From Eledone cirrhosa (Eukaryota): a stretch of 64,000 nucleotides of DNA. Below are positions 1 to 64,000 of the stretch, piece after piece (position 1 is the stretch's first letter; each line of letters opens with the position of its first letter). The notes under the pieces are model-generated. The model saw nothing but the letters and a program-made list of their open reading frames with translations, did no database searches and was not told where the DNA came from. The DNA is taken from NCBI GenBank assembly GCA_964016885.1, contig OZ024740.1, forward strand, positions 279,558,001-279,622,000, in the 5' to 3' direction. A program made the translations under genes and the position numbers.

Positions 1-404
1 TTTGGGTGATCCATTTTTTATTTGGGGGATCCATTTTTTATTTGGGTGATCCATTTTTTATTTGGGTGATCCATTTTTTATTTGGGGGATCCATTTTTTA
101 TTTGGGTGATCCATTTTTTATTTGGGGGATCCATTTTTTATTTGGAGGATCATTTTTTATTTGGGTGATCCATTTTTTATTTGGGGGGATCTATTTTTTA
201 TTTGGGTGATCCATTTTTTATTTGGGTGATCCATTTTTTATTTGGGTGATCCATTTTTTATTTGGTGGATCCATTTTTTATTTGGGAGATCCATTTTTAT
301 TTGGGGGTCCATTTTTTTGGGGGTGATCCATTTTCCATTTGGGTGATCCATTTTGTATTTGGGTGATCCATTTTTTATTTGAGGGATCCATTTTTTATTT
401 GATG

Positions 405-1426
405 GTTCTTCCAAATAAAAAATGGATCACCCAAATAAAAAAATGATCCCCCAAATAAAAAATGGATCACCCAAATAAAAAATGGATCACCCAAATAAAA
501 AATAGATCCGCCAAATAAAAAATGGATCCCCCAAATAAAAATGGATCCCCCAAATAAAAAATGGATCACTCAAATAAAAAATGGAACACCCAAATAAAAA
601 ATGGATCCCCCAAATAAAAAATGGATCCCCCAAATAAAAAATGGATCACCCAAATAAAAAATGGATCCCCCAAATAAAAAATGGATCACCCAAATAAAAA
701 CTGGATCCCCCAAATAAAAAATGGATCACCCAAATAAAAAATGGATCCCCCAAATAAAAAATGGATCCCCCAAATAAAAAATGGATCACCCAAATAAAAA
801 ATGGATCCCCCAAATAAAAAATGGATCACCCAAATAAAAACTGGATCCCCCAAATAAAAAATGGATCACCCAAATAAAAAATGGATCCCCCAAATAAAAA
901 ATGGATCACCCAAATAAAAAATGGATCCCCCAAATAAAAAATGGATCCCCCAAATAAAAAATGGATCCCCCAAATAAAAAATGGATCCCCCAAATAAAAA
1001 ATGGATCACCCAAATAAAAAATGGATCACCCAAATAAAAAATGGATCACCCAAATAAAAAATGCATCCTCCAAATAAAAAATGGATCACCCAAATAAAAA
1101 AAGATCCTAGCAAATAAAAAATGGATCACCCAAATACAAAATGGATCACGCAAATAAAAAATGGATCCCCCAAATAAAAAATGGATCCCCCAAATAAAAA
1201 ATGGATCCCCCAAATAAAAAATGGATCACCCAAATAAAAAATGGATCACCCAAATAAAAAATGGATCACCCAAATAAAAAATGGATCGCCCAAATAAAAA
1301 ATGGATCCCCCAAATAAAAAATGGATAGCCCAAATAAAAAATGGATACCCCAAATAAAAAATGGATCCCCCAAATAAAAAATGGATCACCCAAATAAAAA
1401 ATTGTTCACCCAAATAAAAAATGGAT
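405..1426 (-). repeat. ~1.0-kb reverse-oriented satellite block (family carrying the GATCCTAGC variant)
   Basis: Starts at TTTGATGGTTCTTCCAAA (~398-415) and ends at AAAAAATGGATCCCTTTTTT (~1416-1435). Carries the rare variant AAGATCCTAGCAAAT at ~1101. Homologous blocks lie at ~13800-14780, 22098-23100, 24293-25295 and 26526-27528. Confidence 0.93.
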
Positions 1427-2814
1427 CCCTTTTTTATTTAGCGGATCCATTTTTTATTTCGGTGATCCATTTTTTATTTGGTGGATCCATTTTTAATTTG
1501 GGGGATCCATTTTTTATTTGGGTGATCCATTTTTTATTTGGGGGATCCATTTTTTATTTGAGGGATCAATTTTTTATTTGGGTGATCCATTTTTTATTTG
1601 GGTGATCCATTTTTTATTTGGTGATCCATTTTTTATTTGGGGGATCCATTTTTTATTTGGGTGATCGATTTTTTATTTGGGTGATCCATTTTTTATTTGG
1701 GGGATCCATTTTTTATTTGGGTGATCCATTTTTTATTTGGGGGATCCATTTTTTATTTGGGCGATCCATTTTTTATTTGGGGGATCCATTTTTTATTTGG
1801 GGGATCCATTTTTTATTTGGGGGATCCATTTTATATTTGGGTGATCCATTTTTTATTTGGGTGATCCATTTTCTATTTGGGGGATCCATTTTTTATTTGG
1901 GGGATCCATTTTTTATTTGGGGGATCCATTTTTTATTTGAGGGTCCATTTTTTGGGGGGTGATCCATTTTTTATTTTTTGGATCCATTTTTTATTTGGGT
2001 GATCCATTTTTTATTTGGGTGATCCATTTTCTATTTGGGTGATACATTTTTTATTTGGGTGATCCATTTTTTATTTGGGTGATCCATTTTTTATTTGTGG
2101 GATCCTATTTTTATTTGGGCGATCCATTTTTTATTTGGGGGATTCATTTTTTATTTGGGTGATCCATTTTTTATTTGGGGTATCCATTTTTAATTTGGGT
2201 GATCCATTTTTTATTTGGGTGATCCATTTTTTATTTGGTGGATCCATTTTTAATTTGGGGGATCCATTTTTTATTTGGGTGATCCATTTTTTATTTGGGG
2301 GATCCATTTTTTATTTGGGGGATCAATTTTTTATTTGGGTGATCCATTTTTTATTTGGGTGATCCATTTTTTATTTGGTGATCCATTTTTTATTTGGGTG
2401 ATCGATTTTTTATTTGGGTGATCTATTTTTTATTTGGGGTATCCATTTTTAATTTGGGTGATCCATTTTTTATTTGGGTGATCCATTTTTTATTTGGGTG
2501 ATCCATTTTTTATTTGAGTGATCCATTTTTTATTTGGGGGATCCATTTTTTATTTGGGTGATCCATTTTTTATTTGGGGGATCCATTTTTTATTTGGGGG
2601 ATCCATTTTTTATTTGGGGGATCCATTTTTTATTTGGGGGATCCATTTTTTATTTGGGGGATCCATTTTATATTTGGGTGATCCATTTTTTATTTGGGTG
2701 ATCCATTTTTTATTTGGGGGATCCATTTTTTATTTGGGGGATCCATTTTTTATTTGGGTGATCCATTTTTTATTTGAGCGATCCATTCTTCTTTATTTGA
2801 GGGTTCCATTTTTT

Positions 2815-2890
2815 AAAAAATGGATCACCCAAATAAAAAATGGATCCCCCAAATAAAAAATGGTTCCCCCAAATAAATGGTTCCCTCAAA
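2815..2890 (-). repeat. 76-bp micro-inversion flanked by a ~42-bp direct duplication (copies at 5977-6052 and 9139-9214)
   Basis: Left junction CCATTTTTT|AAAAAATGG, right junction CCCTCAAA|TTTTTATTTG. Both flanks read TTTGA(G/A)CGATCCATTCTTCTTTATTTGAGGGTT. Confidence 0.9.
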
Positions 2891-3399
2891 TTTTTATTTG
2901 AACGATCCATTCTTCTTTATTTGAGGGTTTCATTTTTTATTTGGGTGATCCATTTTTTATTTTGGTGATCCATTTTTTATTTGGGGGATCCATTTTTTAT
3001 TTGGGGGATCCATTTTTGATTTGGGTGATCCATTTTTTATTTGGGTGATCCATTTTTTATTTGGGTGATGCATTTTTTATTTGGGGGAACCATTTTTTAT
3101 TTGGGGGATCCATTTTTTATTTGGGTGATCCATTTTTTATTTGGGTGATCCATTTTTTATTTGGTTGATCCATTTTTTATTTGGTTGATCCATTTTTTAT
3201 TTGGGTGATCCATTTTTTATTTGGGGGATCCATTTTTCATTTGGGTGATCCATTTTTTATTTGGGTGATCCATTTTTTATTTGGGGGCCCATTTTTTATT
3301 TGGGTGAGCCATTTTTTATTTGGGGGATCCATTTTTTATTTGGGTGATCCATTTTTTATTTGGGTGATCCATTTTTTATTTGGGGGATCCATTTTTTAT

Positions 3400-5080
3400 T
3401 TGGGTGATCCATTTTTTATTTGGGAGATCCATCAAATAAAAAATGGATCCCCCAAATAAAAATCGGATCACCATATAAAAAATGGATCACACAAATAAAA
3501 AATGTATCCCCCAAATAAAAAATGGATCACCCAAATAAAAACTGGATCCCCCAAATAAAAAATGGATCACCCAAATAGATAATGTATCCCCCAAATAAAA
3601 AATGGATCCCTCAAATAAAAAATGGATCCCCCAAATAAAAAAGGGATCCATTTTTTATTTGGGTGATCCATTTTTTTATTTGGGTGATCCATTTTTTATT
3701 TGGGGGATCCATTTTTTATTTGGGTGATCCATTTTTTATTTGGGTCATCCATTTTTTATTTGGAGGATCCATTTTTTATTTGGGTGATCCATTTTTTATT
3801 TGGGTGATCCATTTTTTATTTGGGGGATCCATTTTTTATTTGGGTGATCCATTTTTTATTTGAATGATCCATTTTTTTATTTGGGTGATCCATTTTTTAT
3901 TTGGGGGATCCATTTTTTATTTGGGTGATCCATTTTTTATTTGGGGGATCCATTTTTTATTTGGGTGATCCATTTTTTATTTGGGTGATCCATTTTTTAT
4001 TGGGGGGATCCATTTTTTATTTGGGTGATCCATTTTTTATTTGAGTGATCCATTCTTTATTTGAGGTATCCATTTTTTATTTGGGTGATTCATTTTTCAT
4101 TTTGGTGATCCATTTTTTATTTGGGGGATCCATTTTTTATTTGGGCGATCCATTTTTTATTTGGCTGATCCAGTTTTTATTTGGGTGATCCATTTTTTAT
4201 TTGGGTGATACATTTTTTATTTGGGGGATCCATTTTTTATTTGGGGGATCCATTTTTTATTTGGGAGATCCATCAAATAAAAAATGGATCCCCCAAATAA
4301 AAATCGGATCACCATATAAAAAATGGATCACCCAAATAAAAAATGGATCCCCCAAATAAAAAATGGATCACCCAAATAAAAACTGGATCCCCCAAATAAA
4401 AAATGGATCACCCAAATAGATAATGTATCCCCCAAATAAAAAATGGATCCCTCAAATAAAAAATGGATCCCCCAAATAAAAAAGGGATCCATTTTTTATT
4501 TGGGTGATCCATTTTTTTATTTGGGTGATCCATTATTTATTTGGGGGATCCATTTTTTATTTGGGTGATCCATTTCTTATTTGGGTCATCCATTTTTTAT
4601 TTGGAGGATCCATTTTTTATTTGGGTGATCCATTTTTTATTTGGGTGATCCATTTTTTATTTGGGGGATCCATTTTTTATTTGGGTGATCCATTTTTTAT
4701 TTGAATGATCCATTTTTTTATTTGGGTGATCCATTTTTTATTTGGGGGATCCATTTTTTATTTGGGTGATCCATTTTTTATTTGGGGGATCCATTTTTTA
4801 TTTGGGTGATCCATTTTTTATTTGGGTGATCCATTTTTTATTGGGGGGATCCATTTTTTATTTGGGTGATCCATTTTTTATTTGAGTGATCCATTCTTTA
4901 TTTGAGGTATCCATTTTTTATTTGGGTGATTCATTTTTCATTTGGGTGATCCATTTTTTATTTGGGGGATCCATTTTTTATTTGGGCGATCCATTTTTTA
5001 TTTGGCTGATCCAGTTTTTATTTGGGTGATCCATTTTTTATTTGGGTGATACATTTTTTATTTGGGGGATCCATTTTTTA
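3400..5080 (+). repeat. 841-bp tandem duplication nested inside the 3,162-bp unit
   Basis: Junction GATCs at 3426 and 4267. Near-identical ORFs at 3663 and 4504. Shared variants TTTGAATGATCC, TTTGAGGTATCC and GGCTGATCCAG recur at about the same offset. Confidence 0.92.
3426..3648 (-). repeat. Short inverted cassette (~11 monomers); copies at 4267-4489, 6588-6810, 7429-7651, 9750-9972 and 10591-10813
   Basis: Bounded by TTTGGGAGATCCATCAAA and AAAAAAGGGATCCATTTTTT. Internal markers are AAAATCGGATCACCATATAAAA and AAATAGATAATGTATCC. Confidence 0.93.
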
Positions 5081-8000
5081 TTTGGGTGATTCATTTTTTA
5101 TTTGGGTGATCCATTTTTTATGTTTTGGATCCATTTTTTATTTGGGGGATCCATTTTTTATTTGGGTGATCCATTTTTTATTTGGGTGATCCATTTTTTA
5201 TTTGGAGGATCCATTTTTTATTTGGGTGATCGAATTTTTATTTGGAGGATGCATTTTTTATTTGGGTGATCCATTTTTTATTTGGGTGATCAATTTTTTA
5301 TTTGGGTGATCCATTTTTTATTTGGGTGATCAATTTTTTATTTGGGGGATCCATTTTTTATTTGGGTGATCCATTTTTTATTTGGGTGTCCATTTTTTAT
5401 TTGGGTGATCCATTTTTTATTTGGGGGATCCATTTTTTATTTGGGGGATCCATTTTTTATTTGGGTGATCCATTTTTTATTTGGGTGATCCATTTTTATT
5501 TGGGTGATCCATTTTTTATTTGGGTGATCCATTTTTTATTTGGGGGATCCATTTTTTATTTGGGTGTTCCATTTGTTATTTGGGTGATCCATTTTTTATT
5601 TGGGGGTCCATTTTTTATTTGGGTGATCCATTTTTTATTTGGGGGATCCATTTTTTATTTGGGGGATCCATTTTTTATTTGGGTGATCCATTTTTTATTT
5701 GGGGATTCATTTTTTATTTGGGCGATCCATTTTTTATTTGGGTGATCCATTTTTTATTTGGGTGATCCATTTTTTATTTGGGTGATCCATTTTTTATTTG
5801 GAGGATCCATTTTTTATTTGGGGAGCCATTTTTTATTTGGGGATCCATTTTTTATTTGGGTGATCCATTTTTTATTTGGGGGATCCATTTTTTATTTGGG
5901 GGATCCATTTTTTATTTGGGGGATCCATTTTTTATTTGAGCGATCCATTCTTCTTTATTTGAGGGTTCCGTTTTTTAAAAAATGGATCACCCAAATAAAA
6001 AATGGATCCCCCAAATAAAAAATGGTTCCCCCAAATAAATGGTTCCCTCAAATTTTTATTTGAACGATCCATTCTTCTTTATTTGAGGGTTCCATTTTTT
6101 ATTTGGGTGATCCATTTTTTATTTTGGTGATCCATTTTTTATTTGGGGGATCCATTTTTTATTTGGGGGATCCATTTTTGATTTGGGTGATCCATTTTTT
6201 ATTTGGGTGATCCATTTTTTATTTGGGTGATGCATTTTTTATTTGGGGGAACCATTTTTTATTTGGGGGATCCATTTTTTATTTGGGTGATCCATTTTTT
6301 ATTTGGGTGATCCATTTTTTATTTGGTTGATCCATTTTTTATTTGGTTGATCCATTTTTTATTTGGGTGATCCATTTTTTATTTGGGGGATCCATTTTTC
6401 ATTTGGGTGATCCATTTTTTATTTGGGTGATCCATTTTTTATTTGGGGGCCCATTTTTTATTTGGGTGAGCCATTTTTTATTTGGGGGATCCATTTTTTA
6501 TTTGGGTGATCCATTTTTTATTTGGGTGATCCATTTTTTATTTGGGGGATCCATTTTTTATTTGGGTGATCCATTTTTTATTTGGGAGATCCATCAAATA
6601 AAAAATGGATCCCCCAAATAAAAATCGGATCACCATATAAAAAATGGATCACACAAATAAAAAATGTATCCCCCAAATAAAAAATGGATCACCCAAATAA
6701 AAACTGGATCCCCCAAATAAAAAATGGATCACCCAAATAGATAATGTATCCCCCAAATAAAAAATGGATCCCTCAAATAAAAAATGGATCCCCCAAATAA
6801 AAAAGGGATCCATTTTTTATTTGGGTGATCCATTTTTTTATTTGGGTGATCCATTTTTTATTTGGGGGATCCATTTTTTATTTGGGTGATCCATTTTTTA
6901 TTTGGGTCATCCATTTTTTATTTGGAGGATCCATTTTTTATTTGGGTGATCCATTTTTTATTTGGGTGATCCATTTTTTATTTGGGGGATCCATTTTTTA
7001 TTTGGGTGATCCATTTTTTATTTGAATGATCCATTTTTTTATTTGGGTGATCCATTTTTTATTTGGGGGATCCATTTTTTATTTGGGTGATCCATTTTTT
7101 ATTTGGGGGATCCATTTTTTATTTGGGTGATCCATTTTTTATTTGGGTGATCCATTTTTTATTGGGGGGATCCATTTTTTATTTGGGTGATCCATTTTTT
7201 ATTTGAGTGATCCATTCTTTATTTGAGGTATCCATTTTTTATTTGGGTGATTCATTTTTCATTTTGGTGATCCATTTTTTATTTGGGGGATCCATTTTTT
7301 ATTTGGGCGATCCATTTTTTATTTGGCTGATCCAGTTTTTATTTGGGTGATCCATTTTTTATTTGGGTGATACATTTTTTATTTGGGGGATCCATTTTTT
7401 ATTTGGGGGATCCATTTTTTATTTGGGAGATCCATCAAATAAAAAATGGATCCCCCAAATAAAAATCGGATCACCATATAAAAAATGGATCACCCAAATA
7501 AAAAATGGATCCCCCAAATAAAAAATGGATCACCCAAATAAAAACTGGATCCCCCAAATAAAAAATGGATCACCCAAATAGATAATGTATCCCCCAAATA
7601 AAAAATGGATCCCTCAAATAAAAAATGGATCCCCCAAATAAAAAAGGGATCCATTTTTTATTTGGGTGATCCATTTTTTTATTTGGGTGATCCATTATTT
7701 ATTTGGGGGATCCATTTTTTATTTGGGTGATCCATTTCTTATTTGGGTCATCCATTTTTTATTTGGAGGATCCATTTTTTATTTGGGTGATCCATTTTTT
7801 ATTTGGGTGATCCATTTTTTATTTGGGGGATCCATTTTTTATTTGGGTGATCCATTTTTTATTTGAATGATCCATTTTTTTATTTGGGTGATCCATTTTT
7901 TATTTGGGGGATCCATTTTTTATTTGGGTGATCCATTTTTTATTTGGGGGATCCATTTTTTATTTGGGTGATCCATTTTTTATTTGGGTGATCCATTTTT

Positions 8001-11000
8001 TATTGGGGGGATCCATTTTTTATTTGGGTGATCCATTTTTTATTTGAGTGATCCATTCTTTATTTGAGGTATCCATTTTTTATTTGGGTGATTCATTTTT
8101 CATTTGGGTGATCCATTTTTTATTTGGGGGATCCATTTTTTATTTGGGCGATCCATTTTTTATTTGGCTGATCCAGTTTTTATTTGGGTGATCCATTTTT
8201 TATTTGGGTGATACATTTTTTATTTGGGGGATCCATTTTTTATTTGGGTGATCCATTTTTTATTTGGGTGATCCATTTTTTATGTTTTGGATCCATTTTT
8301 TATTTGGGGGATCCATTTTTTATTTGGGTGATCCATTTTTTATTTGGGTGATCCATTTTTTATTTGGAGGATCCATTTTTTATTTGGGTGATCGAATTTT
8401 TATTTGGAGGATGCATTTTTTATTTGGGTGATCCATTTTTTATTTGGGTGATCAATTTTTTATTTGGGTGATCCATTTTTTATTTGGGTGATCAATTTTT
8501 TATTTGGGGGATCCATTTTTTATTTGGGTGATCCATTTTTTATTTGGGTGTCCATTTTTTATTTGGGTGATCCATTTTTTATTTGGGGGATCCATTTTTT
8601 ATTTGGGGGATCCATTTTTTATTTGGGTGATCCATTTTTTATTTGGGTGATCCATTTTTATTTGGGTGATCCATTTTTTATTTGGGTGATCCATTTTTTA
8701 TTTGGGGGATCCATTTTTTATTTGGGTGTTCCATTTGTTATTTGGGTGATCCATTTTTTATTTGGGGGTCCATTTTTTATTTGGGTGATCCATTTTTTAT
8801 TTGGGGGATCCATTTTTTATTTGGGGGATCCATTTTTTATTTGGGTGATCCATTTTTTATTTGGGGATTCATTTTTTATTTGGGCGATCCATTTTTTATT
8901 TGGGTGATCCATTTTTTATTTGGGTGATCCATTTTTTATTTGGGTGATCCATTTTTTATTTGGAGGATCCATTTTTTATTTGGGGAGCCATTTTTTATTT
9001 GGGGATCCATTTTTTATTTGGGTGATCCATTTTTTATTTGGGGGATCCATTTTTTATTTGGGGGATCCATTTTTTATTTGGGGGATCCATTTTTTATTTG
9101 AGCGATCCATTCTTCTTTATTTGAGGGTTCCGTTTTTTAAAAAATGGATCACCCAAATAAAAAATGGATCCCCCAAATAAAAAATGGTTCCCCCAAATAA
9201 ATGGTTCCCTCAAATTTTTATTTGAACGATCCATTCTTCTTTATTTGAGGGTTCCATTTTTTATTTGGGTGATCCATTTTTTATTTTGGTGATCCATTTT
9301 TTATTTGGGGGATCCATTTTTTATTTGGGGGATCCATTTTTGATTTGGGTGATCCATTTTTTATTTGGGTGATCCATTTTTTATTTGGGTGATGCATTTT
9401 TTATTTGGGGGAACCATTTTTTATTTGGGGGATCCATTTTTTATTTGGGTGATCCATTTTTTATTTGGGTCATCCATTTTTTATTTGGTTGATCCATTTT
9501 TTATTTGGTTGATCCATTTTTTATTTGGGTGATCCATTTTTTATTTGGGGGATCCATTTTTCATTTGGGTGATCCATTTTTTATTTGGGTGATCCATTTT
9601 TTATTTGGGGGCCCATTTTTTATTTGGGTGAGCCATTTTTTATTTGGGGGATCCATTTTTTATTTGGGTGATCCATTTTTTATTTGGGTGATCCATTTTT
9701 TATTTGGGGGATCCATTTTTTATTTGGGTGATCCATTTTTTATTTGGGAGATCCATCAAATAAAAAATGGATCCCCCAAATAAAAATCGGATCACCATAT
9801 AAAAAATGGATCACACAAATAAAAAATGTATCCCCCAAATAAAAAATGGATCACCCAAATAAAAACTGGATCCCCCAAATAAAAAATGGATCACCCAAAT
9901 AGATAATGTATCCCCCAAATAAAAAATGGATCCCTCAAATAAAAAATGGATCCCCCAAATAAAAAAGGGATCCATTTTTTATTTGGGTGATCCATTTTTT
10001 TATTTGGGTGATCCATTTTTTATTTGGGGGATCCATTTTTTATTTGGGTGATCCATTTTTTATTTGGGTCATCCATTTTTTATTTGGAGGATCCATTTTT
10101 TATTTGGGTGATCCATTTTTTATTTGGGTGATCCATTTTTTATTTGGGGGATCCATTTTTTATTTGGGTGATCCATTTTTTATTTGAATGATCCATTTTT
10201 TTATTTGGGTGATCCATTTTTTATTTGGGGGATCCATTTTTTATTTGGGTGATCCATTTTTTATTTGGGGGATCCATTTTTTATTTGGGTGATCCATTTT
10301 TTATTTGGGTGATCCATTTTTTATTGGGGGGATCCATTTTTTATTTGGGTGATCCATTTTTTATTTGAGTGATCCATTCTTTATTTGAGGTATCCATTTT
10401 TTATTTGGGTGATTCATTTTTCATTTGGGTGATCCATTTTTTATTTGGGGGATCCATTTTTTATTTGGGCGATCCATTTTTTATTTGGCTGATCCAGTTT
10501 TTATTTGGGTGATCCATTTTTTATTTGGGTGATACATTTTTTATTTGGGGGATCCATTTTTTATTTGGGGGATCCATTTTTTATTTGGGAGATCCATCAA
10601 ATAAAAAATGGATCCCCCAAATAAAAATCGGATCACCATATAAAAAATGGATCACCCAAATAAAAAATGGATCCCCCAAATAAAAAATGGATCACCCAAA
10701 TAAAAACTGGATCCCCCAAATAAAAAATGGATCACCCAAATAGATAATGTATCCCCCAAATAAAAAATGGATCCCTCAAATAAAAAATGGATCCCCCAAA
10801 TAAAAAAGGGATCCATTTTTTATTTGGGTGATCCATTTTTTTATTTGGGTGATCCATTATTTATTTGGGGGATCCATTTTTTATTTGGGTGATCCATTTC
10901 TTATTTGGGTCATCCATTTTTTATTTGGAGGATCCATTTTTTATTTGGGTGATCCATTTTTTATTTGGGTGATCCATTTTTTATTTGGGTGATCCATTTT

Positions 11001-12425
11001 TTATTTGAATGATCCATTTTTTTATTTGGGTGATCCATTTTTTATTTGGGTGATCCATTTTTTATTTGGGGGATCCATTTTTTATTTGGGTGATCCATTT
11101 TTTATTTGGGTGATCCATTTTTTATTGGGGGGATCCATTTTTTATTTGGGTGATCCATTTTTTATTTGAGTGATCCATTCTTTATTTGAGGTATCCATTT
11201 TTTATTTGGGTGATTCATTTTTCATTTGGGTGATCCATTTTTTATTTGGGGGATCCATTTTTTATTTGGGCGATCCATTTTTTATTTGGCTGATCCAGTT
11301 TTTATTTGGGTGATCCATTTTTTATTTGGGTGATACATTTTTTATTTGGGGGATCCATTTTTTATTTGGGTGATCCATTTTTTATTTGGGTGATCCATTT
11401 TTTATGTTTTGGATCCATTTTTTATTTGGGGGATCCATTTTTTATTTGGGTGATCCATTTTTTATTTGGGTGATCCATTTTTTATTTGGAGGATCCATTT
11501 TTTATTTGGGTGATCGAATTTTTATTTGGAGGATGCATTTTTTATTTGGGTGATCCATTTTTTATTTGGGTGATCAATTTTTTATTTGGGGGATCCATTT
11601 TTTATTTGGGTGATCCATTTTTTATTTGGGTGTCCATTTTTTATTTGGGTGATCCATTTTTTATTTGGGGGATCCATTTTTTATTTGGGGGATCCATTTT
11701 TTATTTGGGTGATCCATTTTTTATTTGGGGGATCCATTTTTATTTGGGTGATCCATTTTTTATTTGGGTGATCCATTTTTTATTTGGGGGATCCATTTTT
11801 TATTTGGGTGTTCCATTTGTTATTTGGGTGATCCATTTTTTATTTGGGGGTCCATTTTTTATTTGGGTGATCCATTTTTTATTTGGGGGATCCATTTTTT
11901 ATTTGGGGGATCCATTTTTTATTTGGGTGATCCATTTTTTATTTGGGGATTCATTTTTTATTTGGGCGATCCATTTTTTATTTGGGTGATCCATTTTCTA
12001 TTTGGGTGATCCATTTTTTATTTGGGTGATCCATTTTTTATTTGGAGGATCCATTTTTTATTTGGGGAGCCATTTTTTATTTGGGGATCCATTTTTTATT
12101 TGGGTGATCCATTTTTTATTTGGGGGATCCATTTTTTATTTGGGGGATCCATTTTTTATTTGGGGGATCCATTTTTTACTTGGGTGATCCATTTTTTATT
12201 TGGGGGAACCAGTTTTAATTTGGGTGATCCATTTTTTATTTGGGGGATCCATTTTTTATTTGGGTGATCCATTTTTTATTTTGAGGATCCAGTTTATATT
12301 TGGGGGATCCATTTTTTATTTGGGGGATCCATTTTTTATTTGGGTGTTTCATTTTTTATTTGGGTGATCCATTTTTTATTTGGGGGATCCATTTTTTATT
12401 TGGATGATCCATTTTTTATTTGGGA

Positions 12426-12648
12426 GATCCATCAAATAAAAAATGGATCCCCCAAATAAAAAATGGATCCCTCAAATAAAAAATGGATCACCCAAATAAA
12501 AAATGGATCACCCAAATAAAAAATGTATCCCCAAATAAAAAATGGATCCCCCAAATATAAAATGGATCCCACAAATAAAAAATGGATCACCCAAATAAAA
12601 AATGGATCCCCCAAATAAAAAATGGATCACCCAAATAAAAAAGGGATC
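12426..12648 (-). repeat. Short inverted cassette with the same junctions but different internal variants
   Basis: GGGAGATCCATCAAA at ~12422 and AAGGGATCCA at 12641. It lacks the TCGGATCACCATAT and AAATAGATAA markers. Confidence 0.88.
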
Positions 12649-53600: not shown

Positions 53601-54700
53601 AATGGATCACCCAAATAAAAAATGGATCACACAAATAAAAAATGGATCCCCCAAATAAAAAATGGATCACCCAAATAAAAAATTGTTCACCCAAACAAAA
53701 AATGGATCCCTTTTTTATTTAGCGGATCCATTTTTTATTTCGGTGATCCATTTTTTATTTGGGGGATCCATTTTTTATTTGGGTGATCCATTTTTTATTT
53801 GGGGGATCCATTTTTTATTTGGGTGATCCATTTTTTATTTGGGGGATCCATTTTTTATTTGGGCGATCCATTTTTATTTGGGGGATCCATTTTTTATTTG
53901 GGTGATCCATTTTTTATTTGGGTGATCCATTTTTTATTTGGGTGATACATTTTTTATTTGGGGGATCCATTTTTTATTCGGGTGATCCATTTTTTATTTG
54001 GGCGATCCATTTTTTATTTGGGGGATCCATTTTTTATTTGGTGGATCCATTTTTTATTTGGGGGATCCATTTTTTATTTGGGGGATCCATTTTTTATTTG
54101 GGGGATCCATTTTATATTTGGGTGATCCATTTTTTATTTGGGTGATCCATTTTTTATTTGGGTGATCCATTTTTTATTTGGGGGATCAATTTTTTATTTG
54201 GGTGATCCATTTTTTATTTGGGTGATCCATTTTTTATTTGGTGATCCATTTTTTATTTGGGTGATCCATTTTTTATTTGGTGATCCATTTTTTATTTGGG
54301 GGATCCATTTTTTATTTGGGTGATCCATTTTTTATTTGGGTGATCCATTTTTTATTTGGGGTACCCATTTTAATTTGGGTGATCCATTTTTTATTTGGGT
54401 GATCCATTTTTTATTTGGGTGATCCATTTTTTATTTGGGTGATCCATTTTTTATTTGGGGGATCCATTTTTTATTTTGGCGATCCATTTTTTATTTGGGG
54501 GATCCATTTTTTATTTGGTGGATCCATTTTTTATTTGGGTGATCCATTTTTTATTTGGTGGATCCATTTTTTATTTGGGTGATCCATTTTTTATTTGTGG
54601 GATCCATGTTTTATTTGGGTGATCCATTTTTTATTTGGGTGTTCCATTTTTTATTTGTGGGATCCATTTTTTATTTGGGGGATCCATTTTTTATTTGATG

Positions 54701-56598
54701 GATCTCCCAAATAAAAAATGGATCACCCAAATAAAAAATTGATCCCCCAAATAAAAAATGGATCACCCAAATAAAAATGGATCACCCAAATAAAAAATAG
54801 ATCCCCCAAATAAAAAATGGATCCCCCAAATAAAAAATGGATCCCCCAAATAAAAAATGGATCACCCAAATAAAAAATGGATCCCCAAATAAAAAATGGA
54901 TCATCCAAATAAAAACTGGATCCTCCAAATAAAAAATGGATCACCGAAGTAAAAAATGGATCCCCCAAATAAAAAATGGATCCCCCAAATAAAAAATGGA
55001 TCCCCCAAATAAAAAATGGATCACCCAAATAAAAAATGTATCCCCAAATAAAAAATGGATCCCCCAAATAAAAAATGGATCCTCCAAATAAAAAATGGAT
55101 CCCCCAAATAAAAAATGGATCCCCCAAATAAAAAATGAATCACCCAAATAAAAAATGGATCACCCAAATAAAAAATGGATCGCCCAAATAAAAAATGGAT
55201 CGCCCAAATAAAAAATGGATCGCCCAAATAAAAAATGGATCCCCCAAATAAAAATAGATCCCCCAAATAAAAAATGGATCCCCCAAATAAAAAATGGATC
55301 ACCCAAATAAAAAATGGACCCCCAAATAAAAAATGGATCACCCAAATAAAAATGGATCACCCAAATAAAAAATGGATCCCCCAAATAATAAAAAGAAACA
55401 CCCAAATAAAAAATGGATCACCCAAATAAAAAATGCATCCTCCAAATAAAAAATGGATTACCCAAATAAAAAAAAATCCTCCAAATAAAAAATGGATCAC
55501 CCAAATAAAAAATGGATCACCCAAATAAAAAATGGATCCCCCAAATAAAAAATGGATCCCCCAAATAAAAAACGGATCCCCCAAATAAAAAATGGATCAC
55601 CCAAATAAAAAATGGATCACCCAAATAAAAAATGGATCACCCAAATAAAAATTGGATCGCCCAAATAAAAAATGGATCCCCCAAATAAAAAATGGATCGC
55701 CCAAATAAAAAATGGATACCCCAAATAAAAAATGGATCACCCAAATAAAAAGTGGATCACCCAAATAAAAAATGGATCCCCCAAATAAAAAATGGATCAC
55801 CCAAATAAAAAATGGATCCCTCAAATAAATAATGGATCACCCAAATAAAAAATGGATCACCCAAATAAAAAATGGATCCCCCAAATAAAAAATTGATCAC
55901 CCAAATAAAAAATGGATCACCCAAATAACAAATGGATCCCCCAAATAAAAAATGGTTCACCCAAATAAAAAATGGATCACCCAAATAAAAAATGGATCCC
56001 CCCAAATAAAAAATGGATCACCCAAATAAAAACTGGATCCCCCAAATAAAAAATGGATCACCCAAATAAAAAATGGATCCCCCAAATAAAAAATGGATCA
56101 CCCAAATAAAAAATGGAACCCCCAAATAAAAAATGGATCCCCAAATAAAAAATGGATCACCCAAATAAAAAATGGATAACCCAAATAAAAAATGCATCCT
56201 CCAAATAAAAAATGGATCACCCAAATAAAAAAAAGATCCTCCAAATAAAAAATGGATCACCCAAATAAAAAATGGATCACCCAAATAAAAAATGGATCCC
56301 CCAAATAATAAATGGATCCCCCAAATAAAAAATGGATCCCCCAAATAAAAAATGGATCCCCCAAATAAAAAATGGATCCCCCAAATAAAAAATGGATCAC
56401 CCAAATAAAAAATGGATCGACCAAATATAAAATGGATCCCCCAAATAAAAAATGGATCGCCCAAATAAAAAATGGATCCCCCAAATAAAAAATGGATCAC
56501 CCAAATAAAAAATGGATCACACAAATAAAAAATGGATCCCCCAAATAAAAAATGGATCACCCAAATAAAAAATTGTTCACCCAAATAAAAAATGGATC
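54701..56598 (-). repeat. Longest reverse-oriented block (~1.9 kb), composite
   Basis: Uninterrupted A-rich orientation between the standard junctions. It joins a 43152-44490-type block to a 38700-39284-type tail. Confidence 0.88.
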
Positions 56599-57489
56599 CC
56601 TTTTTTATTTAGCGGATCCATTTTTTATTTCGGTGATCCATTTTTTATTTGGGGGATCCATTTTTTATTTGGGTGATCCATTTTTTATTTGGGGGATCCA
56701 TTTTTTATTTGGGTGATCCATTTTTTATTTGGGGGATCCATTTTTTATTTGGGCGATCCATTTTTTATTTGGGTGATACATTTTTTATTTGGGGGATCCA
56801 TTTTTTATTCGGGTGATCCATTTTTTATTTGGGGGATCCATTTTTTATTTGGGCAATCCATTTTTTATTTGGGGGATCCATTTTTTATTTGGTGGATCCA
56901 TTTTTTTATTTGGGGGATCCATTTTTTATTTGGGGGATCCATTTTTTATTTGGGGGATCCATTTTATATTTGGGTGATCCATTTTTTATTTGGGTGATCC
57001 ATTTTTTATTTGGGTGATCCATTTTTTATTTGGGGGATCAATTTTTTATTTGGGTGTTCCATTTTTTATTTGGGTGATCCATTTTTTATTTGGTGATCCA
57101 TTTTTCATTTGGGTGATCCATTTTTTATTTGGTGATCCATTTTTTATTTGGGGGATCCATTTTTTATTTGGGTGATCCATTTTTCATTTGGGTGATCCAT
57201 TTTTTATTTGGGGTATCCATTTTTAATTTGGGTGATCCATTTTTTATTTGGGTGATCCATTTTTTATTTGGGTGATCCATTTTTTATTTGGGTGATCCAT
57301 TTTTTATTTGGGGGATCCATTTTTTATTTTGGCGATCCATTTTTTATTTGGGGGATCCATTTTTTATTTGGTGGATCCATTTTTTATTTGGGTGATCCAT
57401 TTTTTATTTGGTGGATCCATTTTTTATTTGGGTGATCCATTTTTTATTTGGGTGATCCATTTTTTATTTGGGGGATACATTTTTTATTT

Positions 57490-60400
57490 GGGTGATCCAT
57501 TTTTTATTTGTGGGATCCATGTTTTATTTGGGTGATCCATTTTTTATTTGGGTGATCCATTTTTTATTTGTGGGATCCATGTTTTATTTGGGTGATCCAT
57601 TTTTTATTTGGTTGATCCATTTTTTATTAGGGGGATCCATTTTTTATTTGGGGGATCCATTTTTTATTTGATGGATCTCCCAAATAAAAAATGGATCACC
57701 CAAATAAAAAATTGATCCCCCAAATAAAAAATGGATCACCCAAATAAAAATGGATCACCCAAATAAAAAATAGATCCCCCAAATTAAAAATGGATCCCCC
57801 AAATAAAAAATGGATCCCCCAAATAAAAAATGGACCACCCAAATAAAAAATGGATCCCCAAATAAAAAATGGATCATCCAAATAAAAACTGGATCCTCCA
57901 AATAAAAAATGGATCACCGAAGTAAAAAATGGATCCCCCAAATAAAAAATGGATCCCCCAAATAAAAAATGGATCCCCCAAATAAAAAATGGATCACCCA
58001 AATAAAAAATGGATCCCCAAATAAAAAATGGATCCTCCAAATAAAAAATGGATCCTCCAAATAAAAAATGGATCCCCCAAATAAAAAATGGATCCCCCAA
58101 ATAAAAAATGGATCACCCAAATAAAAAATGGATCACCCAAATAAAAAATGGATCGCCCAAATAAAAAATGGATCGCCCAAATAAAAAATGGATCGCCCAA
58201 ATAAAAAATGGATCCCCCAAATAAAAATAGATCCCCCAAATAAAAAATGGATCCCCCAAATAAAAAATGGATCACCCAAATAAAAAATGGACCCCCAAAT
58301 AAAAAATGGATCACCCAAATAAAAATGGATCACCCAAATAAAAAATGGATCCCCCAAATAATAAAAAGAAACACCCAAATAAAAAATGGATCACCCAAAT
58401 AAAAAATGGATCCTCCAAATAAAAAATGGATTACCCAAATAAAAAAAAATCCTCCAAATAAAAAATGGATCACCCAAATAAAAAATGGATCACCCAAATA
58501 AAAAATGGATCCCCCAAATAAAAAATGGATCCCCCAAATAAAAAACGGATCCCCCAAATAAAAAATGGATCACCCAAATAAAAAATGGATCACCCAAATA
58601 AAAAATGGATCACCCAAATAAAAATTGGATCGCCCAAATAAAAAATGGATCCCCCAAATAAAAAATGGATCGCCCAAATAAAAAATGGATCCCCCAAATA
58701 AAAAATGGATCACCCAAATAAAAAATGGATCACCCAAATAAAAAATGGATCCCCCAAATAAAAAATGGATCACCCAAATAAAAAATGGATCCCTCAAATA
58801 AAAAATGGATCACCCAAATAAAAAATGGATCACCCAAATAAAAAATGGATCCCCCAAATAAAAAATTGATCACCCAAATAAAAAATGGATCACCCAAATA
58901 ACAAATGGATCCCCCAAATAAAAAATGGTTCACCCAAATAAAAAATGGATCACCCAAATAAAAAATGGATCCCCCCAAATAAAAAATGGATCACCCAAAT
59001 AAAAAATGGATCCCTTTTTTATTTAGCGGATCCATTTTTTATTTCGGGGATCCATTCTTTATCTGGGGGATCCATTTTTTATTTGGGTGATCCATTTTTT
59101 ATTTGGGGGATCCATTTTTTATTTCGGTGATCCATTTTTTATTTGGGTGATCCATTTTTTATTTGGGGTTCCATTTTTTATTTGGGTGATCCATTTTTTA
59201 TTTGGTGGATCCATTTTTTATTTGGGGGATCCATTTCTTATTTGGGTGATCCATTTTTTATTTGGGTGATCAATTTTTTATTTGGGCGATCCATTTTTTA
59301 TTTGGGTGATCCATTTTTTATTTGGTGATCCATTTTTTATTTGGGGGATCCATTTTTTATTTGGGTGATCCATTTTTTATTTGGGTGATCCATTTTTTAT
59401 TTGGGTGATCCATTTTTTATTTGGGTGATCCATTTTTTATTTGGGGGATCCATTTTTTATTTGGGTGATCCATTTTTTATTTGGGGGATCCATTTTTTAT
59501 TTGGGGGATCCATTTTTTATTTGGTGGATCCATTTTTTATTTGGGGGATCCATTTTTTATCTGGGGGATCCATTTTTTTGGGGGGGATCCATTTTATATT
59601 TGGGTGATCCATTTTTTATTTGGGTGATCCATTTTTTATTTGGGGGATCCATTTTTTATTTGGGTGATCCATTTTTTATTTGGGCGATCCATTTTTTATT
59701 TGGGTGATCCAATTTTTTATTTGGGTGATCCATTTTTTATTTGGGGGATCAATTTTTTATTTGGGTGATCCATTTTTTATTTGGGTGATCCATTTTTTAT
59801 TTGGTGATCCATTTTTTATTTGGGGGATCCATTTTTTATTTGGGTGATCCATTTTTTATTTGGGTGATCCATTTTTTATTTTGGGTATCCATTTTTAATT
59901 TGGGTGATCCATTTTTTATTTGGGTGATCCATTTTTTATTTGGGTGATCCATTTTTTATTTGGGTGATCCATTTTTTATTTGGGGGATCCATTTTTTATT
60001 TGGGTGATCCATTTTTTATTTAGGGGATCCATTTTTTATTTGGGCCATCCATTTTTTATTTGGGGGATCCATTTTTTATTTGGTGGATCCATTTTTTATT
60101 TGGGGGATCCATTTTTTATTTGGGGGATCCATTTTTTATTTTGGGGATCCATTTTATATTTGGGTGATCCATTTTTTATTTGGGTGATCCATTTTTTATT
60201 TGTGGGATCCATGTTTTATTTGGGTGATCCATTTTTTATTTGGGTGATCCATTTTTTATTTGTGGGATCCATGTTTTATTTGGGTGATCCATTTTTTATT
60301 TGGTTGATCCATTTTTTATTAGGGGGATCCATTTTTTATTTGGGGGATCCATTTTTTATTTGATGGATCTCCCAAATAAAAAATGGATCACCCAAATAAA

Positions 60401-62880
60401 AAATTGATCCCCCAAATAAAAAATGGATCACCCAAATAAAAATGGATCACCCAAATAAAAAATAGATCCCCCAAATTAAAAATGGATCCCCCAAATAAAA
60501 AATGGATCCCCCAAATAAAAAATGGACCACCCAAATAAAAAATGGATCCCCAAATAAAAAATGGATCATCCAAATAAAAACTGGATCCTCCAAATAAAAA
60601 ATGGATCACCGAAGTAAAAAATGGATCCCCCAAATAAAAAATGGATCCCCCAAATAAAAAATGGATCCCCCAAATAAAAAATGGATCACCCAAATAAAAA
60701 ATGGATCCCCAAATAAAAAATGGATCCTCCAAATAAAAAATGGATCCTCCAAATAAAAAATGGATCCCCCAAATAAAAAATGGATCCCCCAAATAAAAAA
60801 TGGATCACCCAAATAAAAAATGGATCACCCAAATAAAAAATGGATCGCCCAAATAAAAAATGGATCGCCCAAATAAAAAATGGATCGCCCAAATAAAAAA
60901 TGGATCCCCCAAATAAAAATAGATCCCCCAAATAAAAAATGGATCCCCCAAATAAAAAATGGATCACCCAAATAAAAAATGGACCCCCAAATAAAAAATG
61001 GATCACCCAAATAAAAATGGATCACCCAAATAAAAAATGGATCCCCCAAATAATAAAAAGAAACACCCAAATAAAAAATGGATCACCCAAATAAAAAATG
61101 GATCCTCCAAATAAAAAATGGATTACCCAAATAAAAAAAAATCCTCCAAATAAAAAATGGATCACCCAAATAAAAAATGGATCACCCAAATAAAAAATGG
61201 ATCCCCCAAATAAAAAATGGATCCCCCAAATAAAAAACGGATCCCCCAAATAAAAAATGGATCACCCAAATAAAAAATGGATCACCCAAATAAAAAATGG
61301 ATCACCCAAATAAAAATTGGATCGCCCAAATAAAAAATGGATCCCCCAAATAAAAAATGGATCGCCCAAATAAAAAATGGATCCCCCAAATAAAAAATGG
61401 ATCACCCAAATAAAAAATGGATCACCCAAATAAAAAATGGATCCCCCAAATAAAAAATGGATCACCCAAATAAAAAATGGATCCCTCAAATAAAAAATGG
61501 ATCACCCAAATAAAAAATGGATCACCCAAATAAAAAATGGATCCCCCAAATAAAAAATTGATCACCCAAATAAAAAATGGATCACCCAAATAACAAATGG
61601 ATCCCCCAAATAAAAAATGGTTCACCCAAATAAAAAATGGATCACCCAAATAAAAAATGGATCCCCCCAAATAAAAAATGGATCACCCAAATAAAAAATG
61701 GATCCCTTTTTTATTTAGCGGATCCATTTTTTATTTCGGGGATCCATTCTTTATCTGGGGGATCCATTTTTTATTTGGGTGATCCATTTTTTATTTGGGG
61801 GATCCATTTTTTATTTCGGTGATCCATTTTTTATTTGGGTGATCCATTTTTTATTTGGGGTTCCATTTTTTATTTGGGTGATCCATTTTTTATTTGGTGG
61901 ATCCATTTTTTATTTGGGGGATCCATTTCTTATTTGGGTGATCCATTTTTTATTTGGGTGATCAATTTTTTATTTGGGCGATCCATTTTTTATTTGGGTG
62001 ATCCATTTTTTATTTGGTGATCCATTTTTTATTTGGGGGATCCATTTTTTATTTGGGTGATCCATTTTTTATTTGGGTGATCCATTTTTTATTTGGGTGA
62101 TCCATTTTTTATTTGGGTGATCCATTTTTTATTTGGGGGATCCATTTTTTATTTGGGTGATCCATTTTTTATTTGGGGGATCCATTTTTTATTTGGGGGA
62201 TCCATTTTTTATTTGGTGGATCCATTTTTTATTTGGGGGATCCATTTTTTATCTGGGGGATCCATTTTTTGGGGGGGGATCCATTTTATATTTGGGTGAT
62301 CCATTTTTTATTTGGGTGATCCATTTTTTATTTGGGGGATCCATTTTTTATTTGGGTGATCCATTTTTTATTTGGGCGATCCATTTTTTATTTGGGTGAT
62401 CCAATTTTTTATTTGGGTGATCCATTTTTTATTTGGGGGATCAATTTTTTATTTGGGTGATCCATTTTTTATTTGGGTGATCCATTTTTTATTTGGTGAT
62501 CCATTTTTTATTTGGGGGATCCATTTTTTATTTGGGTGATCCATTTTTTATTTGGGTGATCCATTTTTTATTTTGGGAATCCATTTTTAATTTGGGTGAT
62601 CCATTTTTTATTTGGGTGATCCATTTTTTATTTGGGTGATCCATTTTTTATTTGGGTGATCCATTTTTTATTTGGGGGATCCATTTTTTATTTGGGTGAT
62701 CCATTTTTTATTTAGGGGATCCATTTTTTATTTGGGCCATCCATTTTTTATTTGGGGGATCCATTTTTTATTTGGTGGATCCATTTTTTATTTGGGGGAT
62801 CCATTTTTTATTTGGGGGATCCATTTTTTATTTTGGGGATCCATTTTATATTTGGGTGATCCATTTTTTATTTGGGTGAT
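57490..62880 (+). repeat. Higher-order repeat, 2,692-bp unit x2 (each ~1.34 kb reverse plus ~1.36 kb forward)
   Basis: Junction GATCs at 57674/60366 and 59009/61701. The ORF set 57696-59980 recurs at +2692. Confidence 0.94.
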
Positions 62881-63017
62881 CCATTTTTTATTTGGGGGAT
62901 CCATTTTTTATTTGGGTGATCCATTTTTTATTTGGGGGATCCATTTTTTATTTCGGTGATCCATTTTTTATTTGGGGGATCCATTTTTTATTTGGGGGTT
63001 CCATTTTTTATTTGGGG

Positions 63018-64000
63018 GATCCATCAAACAAAAAATGGATCACCCAAATAAAAAGTGGATCACCTAAATAAAAAATGGATCACCCAAATAAAAAATGGAT
63101 CCACCAAATAAAAAATGGATCCCCCAAATAAAAAATAGATCACACAAATAAAAAATGGATCCCCCAATTAAAAAATGGATCACCCAAATAAAAAATGGAT
63201 CACCCAAATAAAAAATGGATAACCCAAATAAAAAATGGATCCCCCAAATAAAAAATGGATCACCCAAATAAAAAATGGATCCCCCAAATAAAAAAGGGAT
63301 CCATTTTTTATTTGGGTGATCCATTTTTTATTTGGGGGATCCATTTTTTATTTGGCTTATCCATTTTTATTTGGGTGATCCATTTTTTATTTGGGTGATC
63401 CATTTTTTATTTGGGTGATTCATTTTTTATTTGGGTGATCCATTTTTAATTTTTGGGATCCATTTTTTATTTGGTGGATCCATTTTTTATTTGGGTGATC
63501 CATTTTTTATTTGGGTGATCCATTTTTTATTTGGGTGATCCATTTTTTATTTGATGGATCCCCAAATAAAAAATGGAACCCCCAAATAAAAAATGGATCC
63601 CCCAAATAAAAAATGGATCACCCAAATAAAAAATGGATCCCCCAAATAAAAAATGGATCCCCCAAATAAAAAATGAATCCCTGAAATAAAAAATGGATCC
63701 CCCAAATAAAAAAGGGATCCATTTTTTATTTGGGTGATCCATTTTTTATTTGGGGGGATCCGTTTTTTATTTGGGCGATCCATTTTTTATTTGGGTGATC
63801 CATTTTTTATTTGGGTGATCCATTTTTTATTTGGGGGATCCATTTTTTATTTGGGCGATCCATTTTTTATTTGGGTGATCCATTTTTTATTTGGGGGATC
63901 CATTTTTTATTTGGGGGATCCATTTTTTATTTGGGGGATCCATTTTTTATTTACGGGATCCATTTTTTATTTGGGTGATCCATTTTTTATTTGGGGGATC
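63018..64000. repeat. Double short-inversion module (63018-63301 and 63557-63719), homologous to 45783-46464, 50811-51493 and 47660-48360
   Basis: Shares the markers CATCAAACAAAAAA, GGCTTATCC, GAATCCCTGAAAT, GGGGGGATCCGTTT and TTTACGGGATCC. Confidence 0.88.

What the first reader, a model, noticed from the sequence alone, without database searches (positions are those of the whole stretch)
1..64000. Strand-switching 20-bp satellite: about 82 polarity reversals in 64 kb form a dense field of long imperfect palindromes
Seen: 41 reverse blocks of about 76 bp to 1.9 kb, at approximately 405-1426, 2815-2890, 3426-3648, 4267-4489, 5977-6052, 6588-6810, 7429-7651, 9139-9214, 9750-9972, 10591-10813, 12426-12648, 13285-13447, 13800-14780, 16928-17929, 21203-21405, 22098-23100, 23435-23637, 24293-25295, 25630-25832, 26526-27528, 29798-30818, 32095-33115, 34270-35031, 35688-36688, 38282-39284, 40398-42018, 43152-44490, 45783-46065, 46302-46464, 47579-47662, 47918-48080, 48675-48878, 49154-49996, 50811-51094, 51331-51493, 52608-53708, 54701-56598, 57674-59012, 60366-61704, 63018-63301 and 63557-63719. 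No foreign DNA lies at any switch. Known: most satellite arrays run head-to-tail for long distances, and closely spaced inverted repeats are normally unstable. Inference: every junction can seed a hairpin or cruciform, so the array may be a structure-based element (centromere-like dyad symmetry) that is tolerated or maintained.
Basis: partly seen in the sequence, partly recalled or inferred. Interest (0 to 1): 0.75.

Follow-up and report, generated by a model that had tools for sequence, protein, structure and literature searches.

The report
Satellite built from copied inversion seams
A 20-base repeat in a mollusc genome changes direction 82 times in 64 kb, but 76 of the 82 switches are copies of just two seams, likely left by one or two old inversions and likely multiplied passively as the array duplicated, while all 14 stretches sampled from a megabase array of the same repeat on another chromosome have no switches.

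Summary
In detail: 41 reverse blocks, 82 switches, no foreign DNA. They are not 82 events. 76 of 82 are two seam sequences (J1, J2) read in either polarity. 59% of the window lies in exact direct duplications of at least 300 bp. The arms are not mirror copies: mirrored monomers are 91.9% alike, random pairs 92.3%, and perfect stems run 6-26 bp. The whole 224-kb array has 381 switches, 367 in one register. The same seams recur 16.6 Mb away. The J1 core is the main monomer of a sister array, and J2's right side resembles its second monomer; the first holds a 10-bp palindrome. This suggests a founding inversion between 8-bp inverted microhomologies, though the direction of descent is unresolved. 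The family's largest array (C5, about 1.2 Mb) had 0 switches in 14 of 14 10-kb samples, which argues against a required structure. No centromere test was possible. Similar patterns are in print for Tribolium and human satellites, and this scan noted them before in this genome, including this family.

The parts
1..64000 (.). Part of a 223.8-kb array of a 20-bp satellite (GATCCATTTTTTATTTGGG[T/G]); the array spans G000:C1:279,476,349-279,700,122, i.e. window -81,651 to +142,122
395..63560 (+). Seam J1 (+ to -; forward stops at unit index 16, reverse starts at index 6; 10-nt asymmetric loop), 24 copies after bases 401, 13796, 16924, 22094, 24289, 26522, 29794, 32091, 34266, 35684, 38278, 40394, 43148, 46298, 47575, 47914, 48671, 49150, 51327, 52604, 54697, 57670, 60362, 63553
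3425..63030 (-). Seam J1 in the opposite polarity (J1r), 14 copies after 3432, 4273, 6594, 7435, 9756, 10597, 12432, 13291, 21209, 23441, 25636, 45789, 50817, 63024
1420..61715 (+). Seam J2 (- to +; centred on GGATCC, one mismatch 4 bases from the axis), 19 copies after 1429, 14782, 17931, 23102, 25297, 27530, 30820, 33117, 35033, 36690, 39286, 42020, 44492, 48880, 49998, 53710, 56600, 59014, 61706
3635..63720 (-). Seam J2 in the opposite polarity (J2r), 19 copies after 3642, 4483, 6804, 7645, 9966, 10807, 12642, 13441, 21399, 23631, 25826, 46059, 46458, 47656, 48074, 51088, 51487, 63295, 63713
2816..9214 (-). Three copies (2816-2890, 5978-6052, 9140-9214) of a 75-bp reverse block bounded by J3 (perfect T6A6 centre, same register as J1; likely a J1 x J1r crossover) and J4 (4-nt loop, other register; likely a deletion across a J2-type seam)
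   Evidence: origins inferred
2816..12140 (+). 3,162-bp higher-order repeat, about 3 copies with 6 seams per full copy; copies 1 and 2 are 99.94% identical
21726..27530 (+). Higher-order repeat of about 2.2 kb (periods 2,195 and 2,233), 4 seams per copy
45790..52650 (+). 5,029-bp-period duplication (1,793 bp exact)
57478..62270 (+). 2,692-bp-period duplication (2,101 bp exact; 98.7% over the unit)
15182..15730 (+). Forward stretch that is an inverted copy of part of the ~1-kb reverse block (274 bp exact to 17137-17410), with no seam at its borders
18531..18556 (+). Forward-only sister-type monomer B1 carrying the 10-bp palindrome ATGGATCCAT: either the precursor of J1/J2 or a collapsed J1-J2 cassette
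28967..28992 (+). Second copy of the same B1 monomer with near-identical flanks

Best explanation
This is a 20-bp satellite array whose 0.8-5-kb higher-order repeats carry two inversion seams, likely left by one or two old inversions and likely multiplied passively by ordinary duplication. Step 1 (inferred): an inversion between 8-bp inverted microhomologies made J1 plus J2 or its perfect form J2p. One site was a sister-type monomer (ATGGATCC), the other an ordinary monomer (GGATCCAT). Step 2 (shown as sequence pattern): tandem duplication of segments holding the seams multiplied them. Step 3 (mirror copies shown; mechanism inferred): strand switching between opposite-facing monomers copied or flipped whole segments without making new seams, so each seam occurs in both polarities. 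Step 4 (inferred): crossovers between a seam and its flipped copy, or deletions, gave the rare seams J3 and J4. Tolerance is likely helped by short perfect stems, about 8% arm mismatch and interrupted centres. No function is needed to explain the pattern.
For: 76 of 82 window seams and 351 of 381 array seams are J1, J2 or J2p; 367 of 381 share one register. The 176 J1 copies fall into 55 distinct 80-mers and the 146 J2 copies into 30, and several identical 80-mers occur in both polarities. Exact direct matches of at least 300 bp cover 59% of the window; exact inverted matches of at least 150 bp cover 5.8%. A recent mirror duplication beyond the window (about +103 to +120 kb; up to 2,238 bp exact) lies among the known seam classes and their point variants. 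The same seams occur in a second array at C1:296.15-296.57 Mb (93 of 98 seams in 8 samples) and at the edge of the C5 array. The commonest monomer of a sister array at C1:295.445-295.535 Mb is the J1 core (454+96 copies in 50 kb). After B1 the commonest follower lacks the A at index 5 and ends in TTTAG (164 copies), as J2's right side does. That TTTAG variant is in 32 of 146 J2 flanks against 94 of 7,165 ordinary monomers. Re-inverting one array-2 cassette between its two GGATCC sites in a script removes both switches and yields B1 (one cassette tried). The C5 array has 0 switches in 14 of 14 interior samples.
Against: The direction of step 1 is not settled. The sister array is no more diverged than the window (0.435 vs 0.466 edits per monomer, scored against 3 and 2 reference units), and B1 can equally arise by deletion between the direct ATGGATC repeats of J1 and J2. 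The three B1 copies in this array have flanks that fit either history. J2 differs from the sister dimer by one extra C and by CG for GT. There are at least two J1 haplotypes, so one founder versus two is open. J2 cores are about half as variable as the array average (0.013 vs 0.029), though classification favours intact cores. Neutrality is not shown: similar seam-rich arrays in other satellites of this genome (unchecked notes) could reflect selection or a lineage-wide mutational bias.
Confidence: 0.72

Rival explanations
1. The seams are selected structural elements: hairpin or cruciform sites that organise (peri)centromeric chromatin, as proposed for Tribolium macro-dyads.
For: Seam 80-mers are predicted to fold (class means -11 to -27 vs -4 kcal/mol). 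The array sits in a patchwork of satellites with 16-, 19-, 25/27- and 196-bp units. Seam density is fairly even along the array, 21-52 per full 20-kb bin. PMC13081366 (abstract, first part of section 7, section 10) and PMC12581902 (passages) propose such a role, untested there.
Against: The same monomer forms about 1.2 Mb head-to-tail on C5 (0 switches in 14 samples). The neighbouring satellites show no switches: 19-mer 0 in 48 kb, 196-mer 0 in 5 of 5 samples. The family seems confined mostly to C1 and C5 (hand estimate). Arms are not homogenised across seams. The sister array's own seam lies in another register. Arm lengths vary from 75 bp to more than 3 kb.
Confidence: 0.08
2. Recurrent, sequence-driven switching: the palindromic GGATCC and TA sites in each monomer keep triggering new template switches in the same register, so many seams are independent events.
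For: 367 of 381 seams share the register in which the monomer best matches its own reverse complement. J2p and J3 are exactly what a switch at GGATCC or TA would give. There are at least two J1 haplotypes.
Against: J1 and J2 (322 of 381) are asymmetric seams that a switch at those palindromes would not make. The reciprocal perfect seams do not appear among the classes. Flanks are shared over 80 bp among up to 32 copies. 140 kb of the same monomer on C5 show no switch.
Confidence: 0.1
3. The array grew from a foldback-type transposon whose inverted arms are built of tandem repeats (Rehavkus or Tetris type).
For: Short dispersed runs of the 20-mer exist (C1:43.16 Mb; loose read ends running into unlike sequence). 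The sister array's repeat unit includes a ~1.1-kb spacer, part of which is a dispersed repeat (481 candidates, 40 scored). PMC12581902 (passages) describes satellites expanding from such elements.
Against: No internal spacer or other foreign DNA lies at any of the 82 seams. Arms are not mirror copies. The 66-aa frame in the sister spacer had no Pfam match. The best dispersed hits match only the spacer part (about the first 225-245 of 321 bases), not the adjoining monomers.
Confidence: 0.05
4. Assembly or library artefact (fold-back chimeric reads).
For: No amplification-free long reads were available. No listed piece reached the tool's bar of 31 letters on both sides of a seam. The raw RAD reads (X5, X6, X7) gave no clear bridging.
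Against: Chimeric fold-backs give mirror-identical arms at scattered positions. Here arms are no more alike than random monomers and the seams are stereotyped inside higher-order repeats that differ by 0.06-11%. The seams recur at three loci. Five listed contigs of run X1 cross J1r with 17-30 letters on each side, one with 0 mismatches at word depth 1,092. X1 may be the assembly's own sample and its library is not on record.
Confidence: 0.05

Closest known systems
Tribolium madens TmSat1/TmSat2 macro-dyad symmetries (PMC13081366; seen: abstract, first part of section 7, section 10)
   Same: Satellite arrays with inverted sub-arrays and a few highly conserved inversion sites in thousands of copies (2,044 INV_1a at 98.9%, 3,486 INV_1b at 98.2%). 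The authors note that conservation may reflect spread rather than function. The TmSat2 monomer itself contains ~300-bp inverted arms.
   Different: There, arrays mostly have two sub-arrays of several kb, tend to symmetry, lie on all chromosomes and make up 38% of the genome. Here the unit is 20 bp, there are 1.3-1.7 switches per kb, arms are unequal, the family is minor and mostly on two sequences, and its largest array is head-to-tail where sampled. The paper says macro-dyads are documented only in Tribolium; this genome is a mollusc.
Tribolium freemani TfSat01/TfSat03 macro-dyads and foldback (Rehavkus)-linked satellites (PMC12581902; seen: passages)
   Same: Inverted sub-arrays with conserved inversion points; a functional role is proposed but untested.
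   Different: Intermingled major and minor satellites on nearly all chromosomes; no transposon body occurs in this window.
Human HSat3B5 (chr9) and beta-satellite arrays (bioRxiv 10.1101/2021.07.12.452052; seen: passages)
   Same: Pericentromeric arrays with over 200 inversion breakpoints.
   Different: The passages seen give no seam ancestry or per-kb density; this array has 381 switches in 224 kb from about two seam types.
Quasi-palindrome instability of inverted repeats in yeast (PMC10164571; seen: passages)
   Same: Supplies the expectation for tolerance: 94% and 86% arm identity lower rearrangement rates about 15- and 58-fold, and a mismatch near the centre lowers recombination. In single-stranded DNA these brakes largely fail.
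   Different: Single Alu pairs in a yeast assay; the J1 loop (10 nt) is shorter than the 12-bp spacer used there, so residual instability is expected here.

Membership tests
Satellite DNA with higher-order repeats | Long tandem array of a short unit | tested here: met
   223.8 kb of a 20-bp unit
Satellite DNA with higher-order repeats | Multi-monomer units more alike than their monomers | tested here: met
   3,162-bp unit 99.94%, 2,692-bp unit 98.7%, against 92.3% between random monomers
Tribolium-type macro-dyad satellite | Inverted sub-arrays with few, conserved inversion sites | tested here: met
   351 of 381 seams are J1, J2 or J2p
Tribolium-type macro-dyad satellite | Arrays of mostly two multi-kb sub-arrays tending to symmetry | tested here: not met
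   382 blocks in one array; window median 658 bp; unequal arms
Tribolium-type macro-dyad satellite | Dominant satellite on all chromosomes | tested here: inconclusive
   22,514 exact 35-mer matches; about 90% fit C1 and C5 by hand estimate; match lists show only the first 100 places, so small arrays elsewhere are not excluded
Functional centromeric satellite | CENP-A/CenH3 occupancy | not testable with these tools
   No chromatin data among the 7 runs listed
Functional centromeric satellite | Non-B structure formed in vivo | not testable with these tools
   Only single-strand folding was computed
Fold-back inverted duplication (true palindrome) | Arms are mirror copies about the seam | tested here: not met
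   Mirrored monomers 0.919 vs random 0.923; stems 6-26 bp
Foldback transposon | Inverted tandem-repeat arms around an internal non-repeat spacer | tested here: not met
   No foreign DNA in the window
Foldback transposon | Dispersed copies with target-site duplications | tested here: inconclusive
   One dispersed run of about four monomers seen; target-site duplications not examined

The most novel reading that the evidence does not exclude
The switch-rich C1 arrays are a selected, structure-based chromatin domain that converges on Tribolium macro-dyads. A centre-interrupted seam was favoured because it keeps hairpin potential with long arms while limiting breakage: perfect-centre J2p has a shorter arm of 100 bp or less in 18 of 29 copies in this array and 21 of 22 in array 2, the interrupted J2 in only 3 of 146 (copies are not independent). 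The head-to-tail C5 array of the same monomer would then be the inert control.
Probability: 0.08. Interest if true: 0.75.

Novelty: new member of a known kind. Interest (0 to 1): 0.27.

Why it matters
As passive amplification it is ordinary satellite evolution. It also shows that a count of strand switches and the conservation of inversion sites are not evidence of function, since two seams can give hundreds of switches. Two things are useful. First, the seams can be tied letter by letter to a sister monomer with a 10-bp palindrome, which gives a concrete candidate origin. Second, one genome holds the same monomer as switch-rich arrays (C1) and as a megabase array that is head-to-tail where sampled (C5). 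That is a built-in control for the untested idea that macro-dyad symmetry marks centromeres.

Tried and rejected
The 1,593 genome-wide hits of a 24-mer spanning J1 were first read as seam copies. Rejected: the 24-mer also matches the forward-only sister monomer, which accounts for most hits. My first guess that this monomer was common in the C5 array was wrong (0 in 12 samples). An exact blunt-cut reciprocal of J1 (class 7/17, 3 copies at the array's left edge) was considered as the founder; it shares its flank variant with J2r and may be a point derivative. Ungapped arm identity (0.80-0.86 for the J1 and J2 classes) is depressed by indels and was replaced by the monomer-wise test. The divergence figures were faulty (the pattern caught reverse monomers) and were redone. 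Coordinates computed from the joined array are shifted by one base; those are used. The idea that the short reverse blocks are mirror images of short forward blocks within the window failed for the one pair aligned directly (79%); near-identical mirror partners lie beyond +108 kb. Reads could be laid only on short stretches: no listed piece has 31 letters on both sides of a seam, and the RAD reads mostly come from dispersed short copies. No RNA holder was listed, which is no evidence on expression. The 66-aa frame in the sister spacer looked mariner-like from memory but had no Pfam match. Literature: the monomer on either strand, 0 papers; octopus or cephalopod satellite and centromere searches, no title on cephalopod satellites among 6 and 4 listings; general searches. 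Subscription journals are not covered, and no supplements were read.
Full report
Observation. The window is one 20-bp satellite. A two-strand profile Viterbi gives 83 blocks, 41 of them reverse, and 82 switches. 97.2% of bases fit the model and no 20-base stretch falls below 15 matches, so there is no foreign DNA.

Setting. The window is G000:C1:279,558,001-279,622,000, on a 442.9-Mb sequence of a 3.0-Gb assembly. The genome has molluscan haemocyanin genes (39 matches to PF14830). The best single-domain PDB hits of one exon are 1js8 and 4yd9_C, which I recall as octopus and squid proteins; an octopus-like genome was also suggested by earlier notes. The array runs from C1:279,476,349 to 279,700,122 (223.8 kb) between a 19-bp and a 196-bp satellite.

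The switches are few seams, many times. In the window, 24 J1 + 14 J1r and 19 J2 + 19 J2r make up 76 of 82 switches; J1r and J2r are the reverse complements of J1 and J2. The other six bound three copies of one 75-bp block. The whole array has 381 switches: 176 J1-type, 146 J2-type, 29 of a perfect-centre form J2p, 12 J3, 9 J4 and 9 others. 367 of 381 share one register, with the axis on the GATC centre or half a unit away. Up to 32 copies share an identical 80-mer, and several identical 80-mers occur in both polarities. Exact direct matches of at least 300 bp cover 59% of the window, with periods such as 3,162, 2,692, 5,029 and about 2,200 bp. Copy identities range from 99.94% down to 89% in the nine pairs aligned.

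They are not true palindromes. Monomers at mirrored positions are 91.9% alike (706 pairs in the window), random pairs 92.3%. Perfect stems at window seams are 6-26 bp. J1 has a 10-nt asymmetric loop and J2 has one mismatch four bases from the axis. Exact inverted matches of at least 150 bp cover 5.8% of the window; the longest is 274 bp with a 1,468-bp gap. Single-strand hairpins are still predicted: class means of -11 to -27 kcal/mol for seam 80-mers against -4 for controls. In yeast, arm divergence and centre mismatches damp but do not abolish inverted-repeat instability (PMC10164571, passages).

How polarity flips. Beyond the window, at about +103 to +120 kb, lies a recent mirror duplication with exact matches of up to 2,238 bp. 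The seams listed there belong to the known classes or are point variants of them. Inside the window, 15182-15730 is a forward copy of part of the ~1-kb reverse block and has no seam at its borders. So segments are copied into the opposite orientation without new seams.

Where the seams came from. A 24-mer over J1 gave 1,593 genome-wide hits, but most belong to a sister array at C1:295.445-295.535 Mb. Its commonest monomer, B1, is the J1 core read straight on and holds the 10-bp palindrome ATGGATCCAT. Its second monomer lacks the A at index 5 and ends in TTTAG, like J2's right side: 32 of 146 J2 flanks carry TTTAG against 94 of 7,165 ordinary monomers. An inversion between B1's ATGGATCC and an ordinary GGATCCAT would give J1 plus J2r or J2p and would explain the shared register. 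Re-inverting one array-2 cassette in a script removed both switches and produced B1. The reverse history, in which a J1-J2 cassette collapsed to B1 and was then amplified, is not excluded: the sister array is no more diverged than the window (0.435 vs 0.466 edits per monomer). I put the precursor direction at about 60%. At least two J1 haplotypes leave one or two founders. J3 is what a J1 x J1r crossover at the shared TA would give, and J4 looks like a deletion across a centre; both are inferred.

The family elsewhere. A second array at C1:296.15-296.57 Mb carries the same seams: 93 of 98 in the 8 pure-array samples analysed. L088 and the composite samples L051, L052 and L106 were left out of that count. 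A third array, C5:64.445 to at least 65.63 Mb, has 0 switches in 14 of 14 interior 10-kb samples (about 12% of it), where array-1 density would predict about 240; J1 and J2r occur at its left edge. By a hand estimate from sample densities, these arrays hold about 90% of the 22,514 exact 35-mer matches. Other satellites nearby run head-to-tail: the 19-mer over 48 kb, the 196-mer in 5 of 5 samples, and 8 of 9 other samples; the ninth showed one change at a boundary between two repeats. The sister array has a seam of its own in another register, so the register is inherited, not enforced across the family.

Artefact check. Chimeric fold-backs would give mirror arms at scattered sites; neither is seen. 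Five listed contigs of public run X1 cross J1r with 17-30 letters on each side, one without mismatch at word depth 1,092. This is below the tool's 31-letter bar, X1 may be the assembly's own sample, no listed X3 piece crosses by more than 7 letters, and the RAD reads of X5-X7 are uninformative. Long-read confirmation remains open.

A hint of a stability filter. Perfect-centre seams sit mostly beside short arms: the shorter arm is 100 bp or less for 18 of 29 J2p in this array, 21 of 22 in array 2 and 9 of 12 J3, but for only 3 of 146 interrupted J2. Eleven J2p copies do have arms of 323-663 bp, and copies are related by duplication, so this is a lead, not a result. Seam cores differ from their consensus by 0.030 (J1) and 0.013 (J2) per base, against 0.029 for the array.

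Comparison. Conserved inversion sites in thousands of copies are described for Tribolium madens (PMC13081366; abstract, first part of section 7, section 10) and T. freemani (PMC12581902; passages), with a centromeric role proposed but untested. Over 200 strand switches are reported in human HSat3B5 and beta-satellite arrays (10.1101/2021.07.12.452052; passages). This array works like those but fails the two-sub-array, near-symmetric pattern. The monomer was not found in the library, nor was a paper on cephalopod satellites. Earlier notes of this scan report the same pattern in this family and in several other satellites of this genome (unchecked except where stated); my reading was recorded before I opened them.

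Verdict. Real, well explained by duplication of one or two inversion scars (0.72), a new member of a known kind, interest 0.27. A selected structural role is not excluded (0.08) and is directly testable against the C5 array.

Noticed in passing
G000:C1:295,445,600-295,535,000 (L090-L095): Sister 20/19-bp array whose repeat unit is a forward run of 1.4-5 kb, its own strand-switch seam (3-bp microhomology, other register), a ~330-bp reverse run and a ~1.1-kb spacer; part of the spacer is a dispersed repeat found on many contigs.
   Followed up: partly
L092:4009-4209: 66-aa open stretch in that spacer that looks, from memory, like the N-terminal region of a Tc1/mariner transposase; no Pfam match.
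   Followed up: partly
G000:C1:296,150,000-296,210,000 (L051, L052, L106): Composite repeat in which 20-mer blocks with J1/J2 seams alternate with a 22-bp satellite and a short G-rich run of about 15-bp units; a 200-N scaffold gap lies in L051.
   Followed up: no
L055, L056, L085, L070, end of L088: A more diverged, GC-richer relative of the 20-mer flanks both array 2 and the C5 array and grades into the main monomer; a possible older layer.
   Followed up: no
G000:C1:279.2-280.0 Mb: Patchwork of unrelated satellites abutting without spacer: 25/27-bp, 16-bp, 19-bp (at least 48 kb), this 20-mer and a 196/227-bp unit (sampled over 300 kb); both boundaries of the 20-mer array are sharp.
   Followed up: partly
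G000:C1:43,162,700-43,162,780 (L069): Solitary run of about four monomers, including the sister-type B1 monomer, in unique sequence; RAD reads point to more such dispersed short runs.
   Followed up: partly
array 1, window +118 to +142 kb, against array 2 at C1:296.30-296.57 Mb: The right end of this array (reverse with short forward blips) is the reverse-complement arrangement of the right part of array 2 (forward with mostly 32-93-bp reverse blips), 16.6 Mb away; a possible old inverted duplication or transfer.
   Followed up: partly
G000:C1:173.75-173.91 Mb, C26:21.93-22.02 Mb, C27:61-67 kb: Several haemocyanin gene copies, with the two on C26 facing in opposite directions.
   Followed up: no
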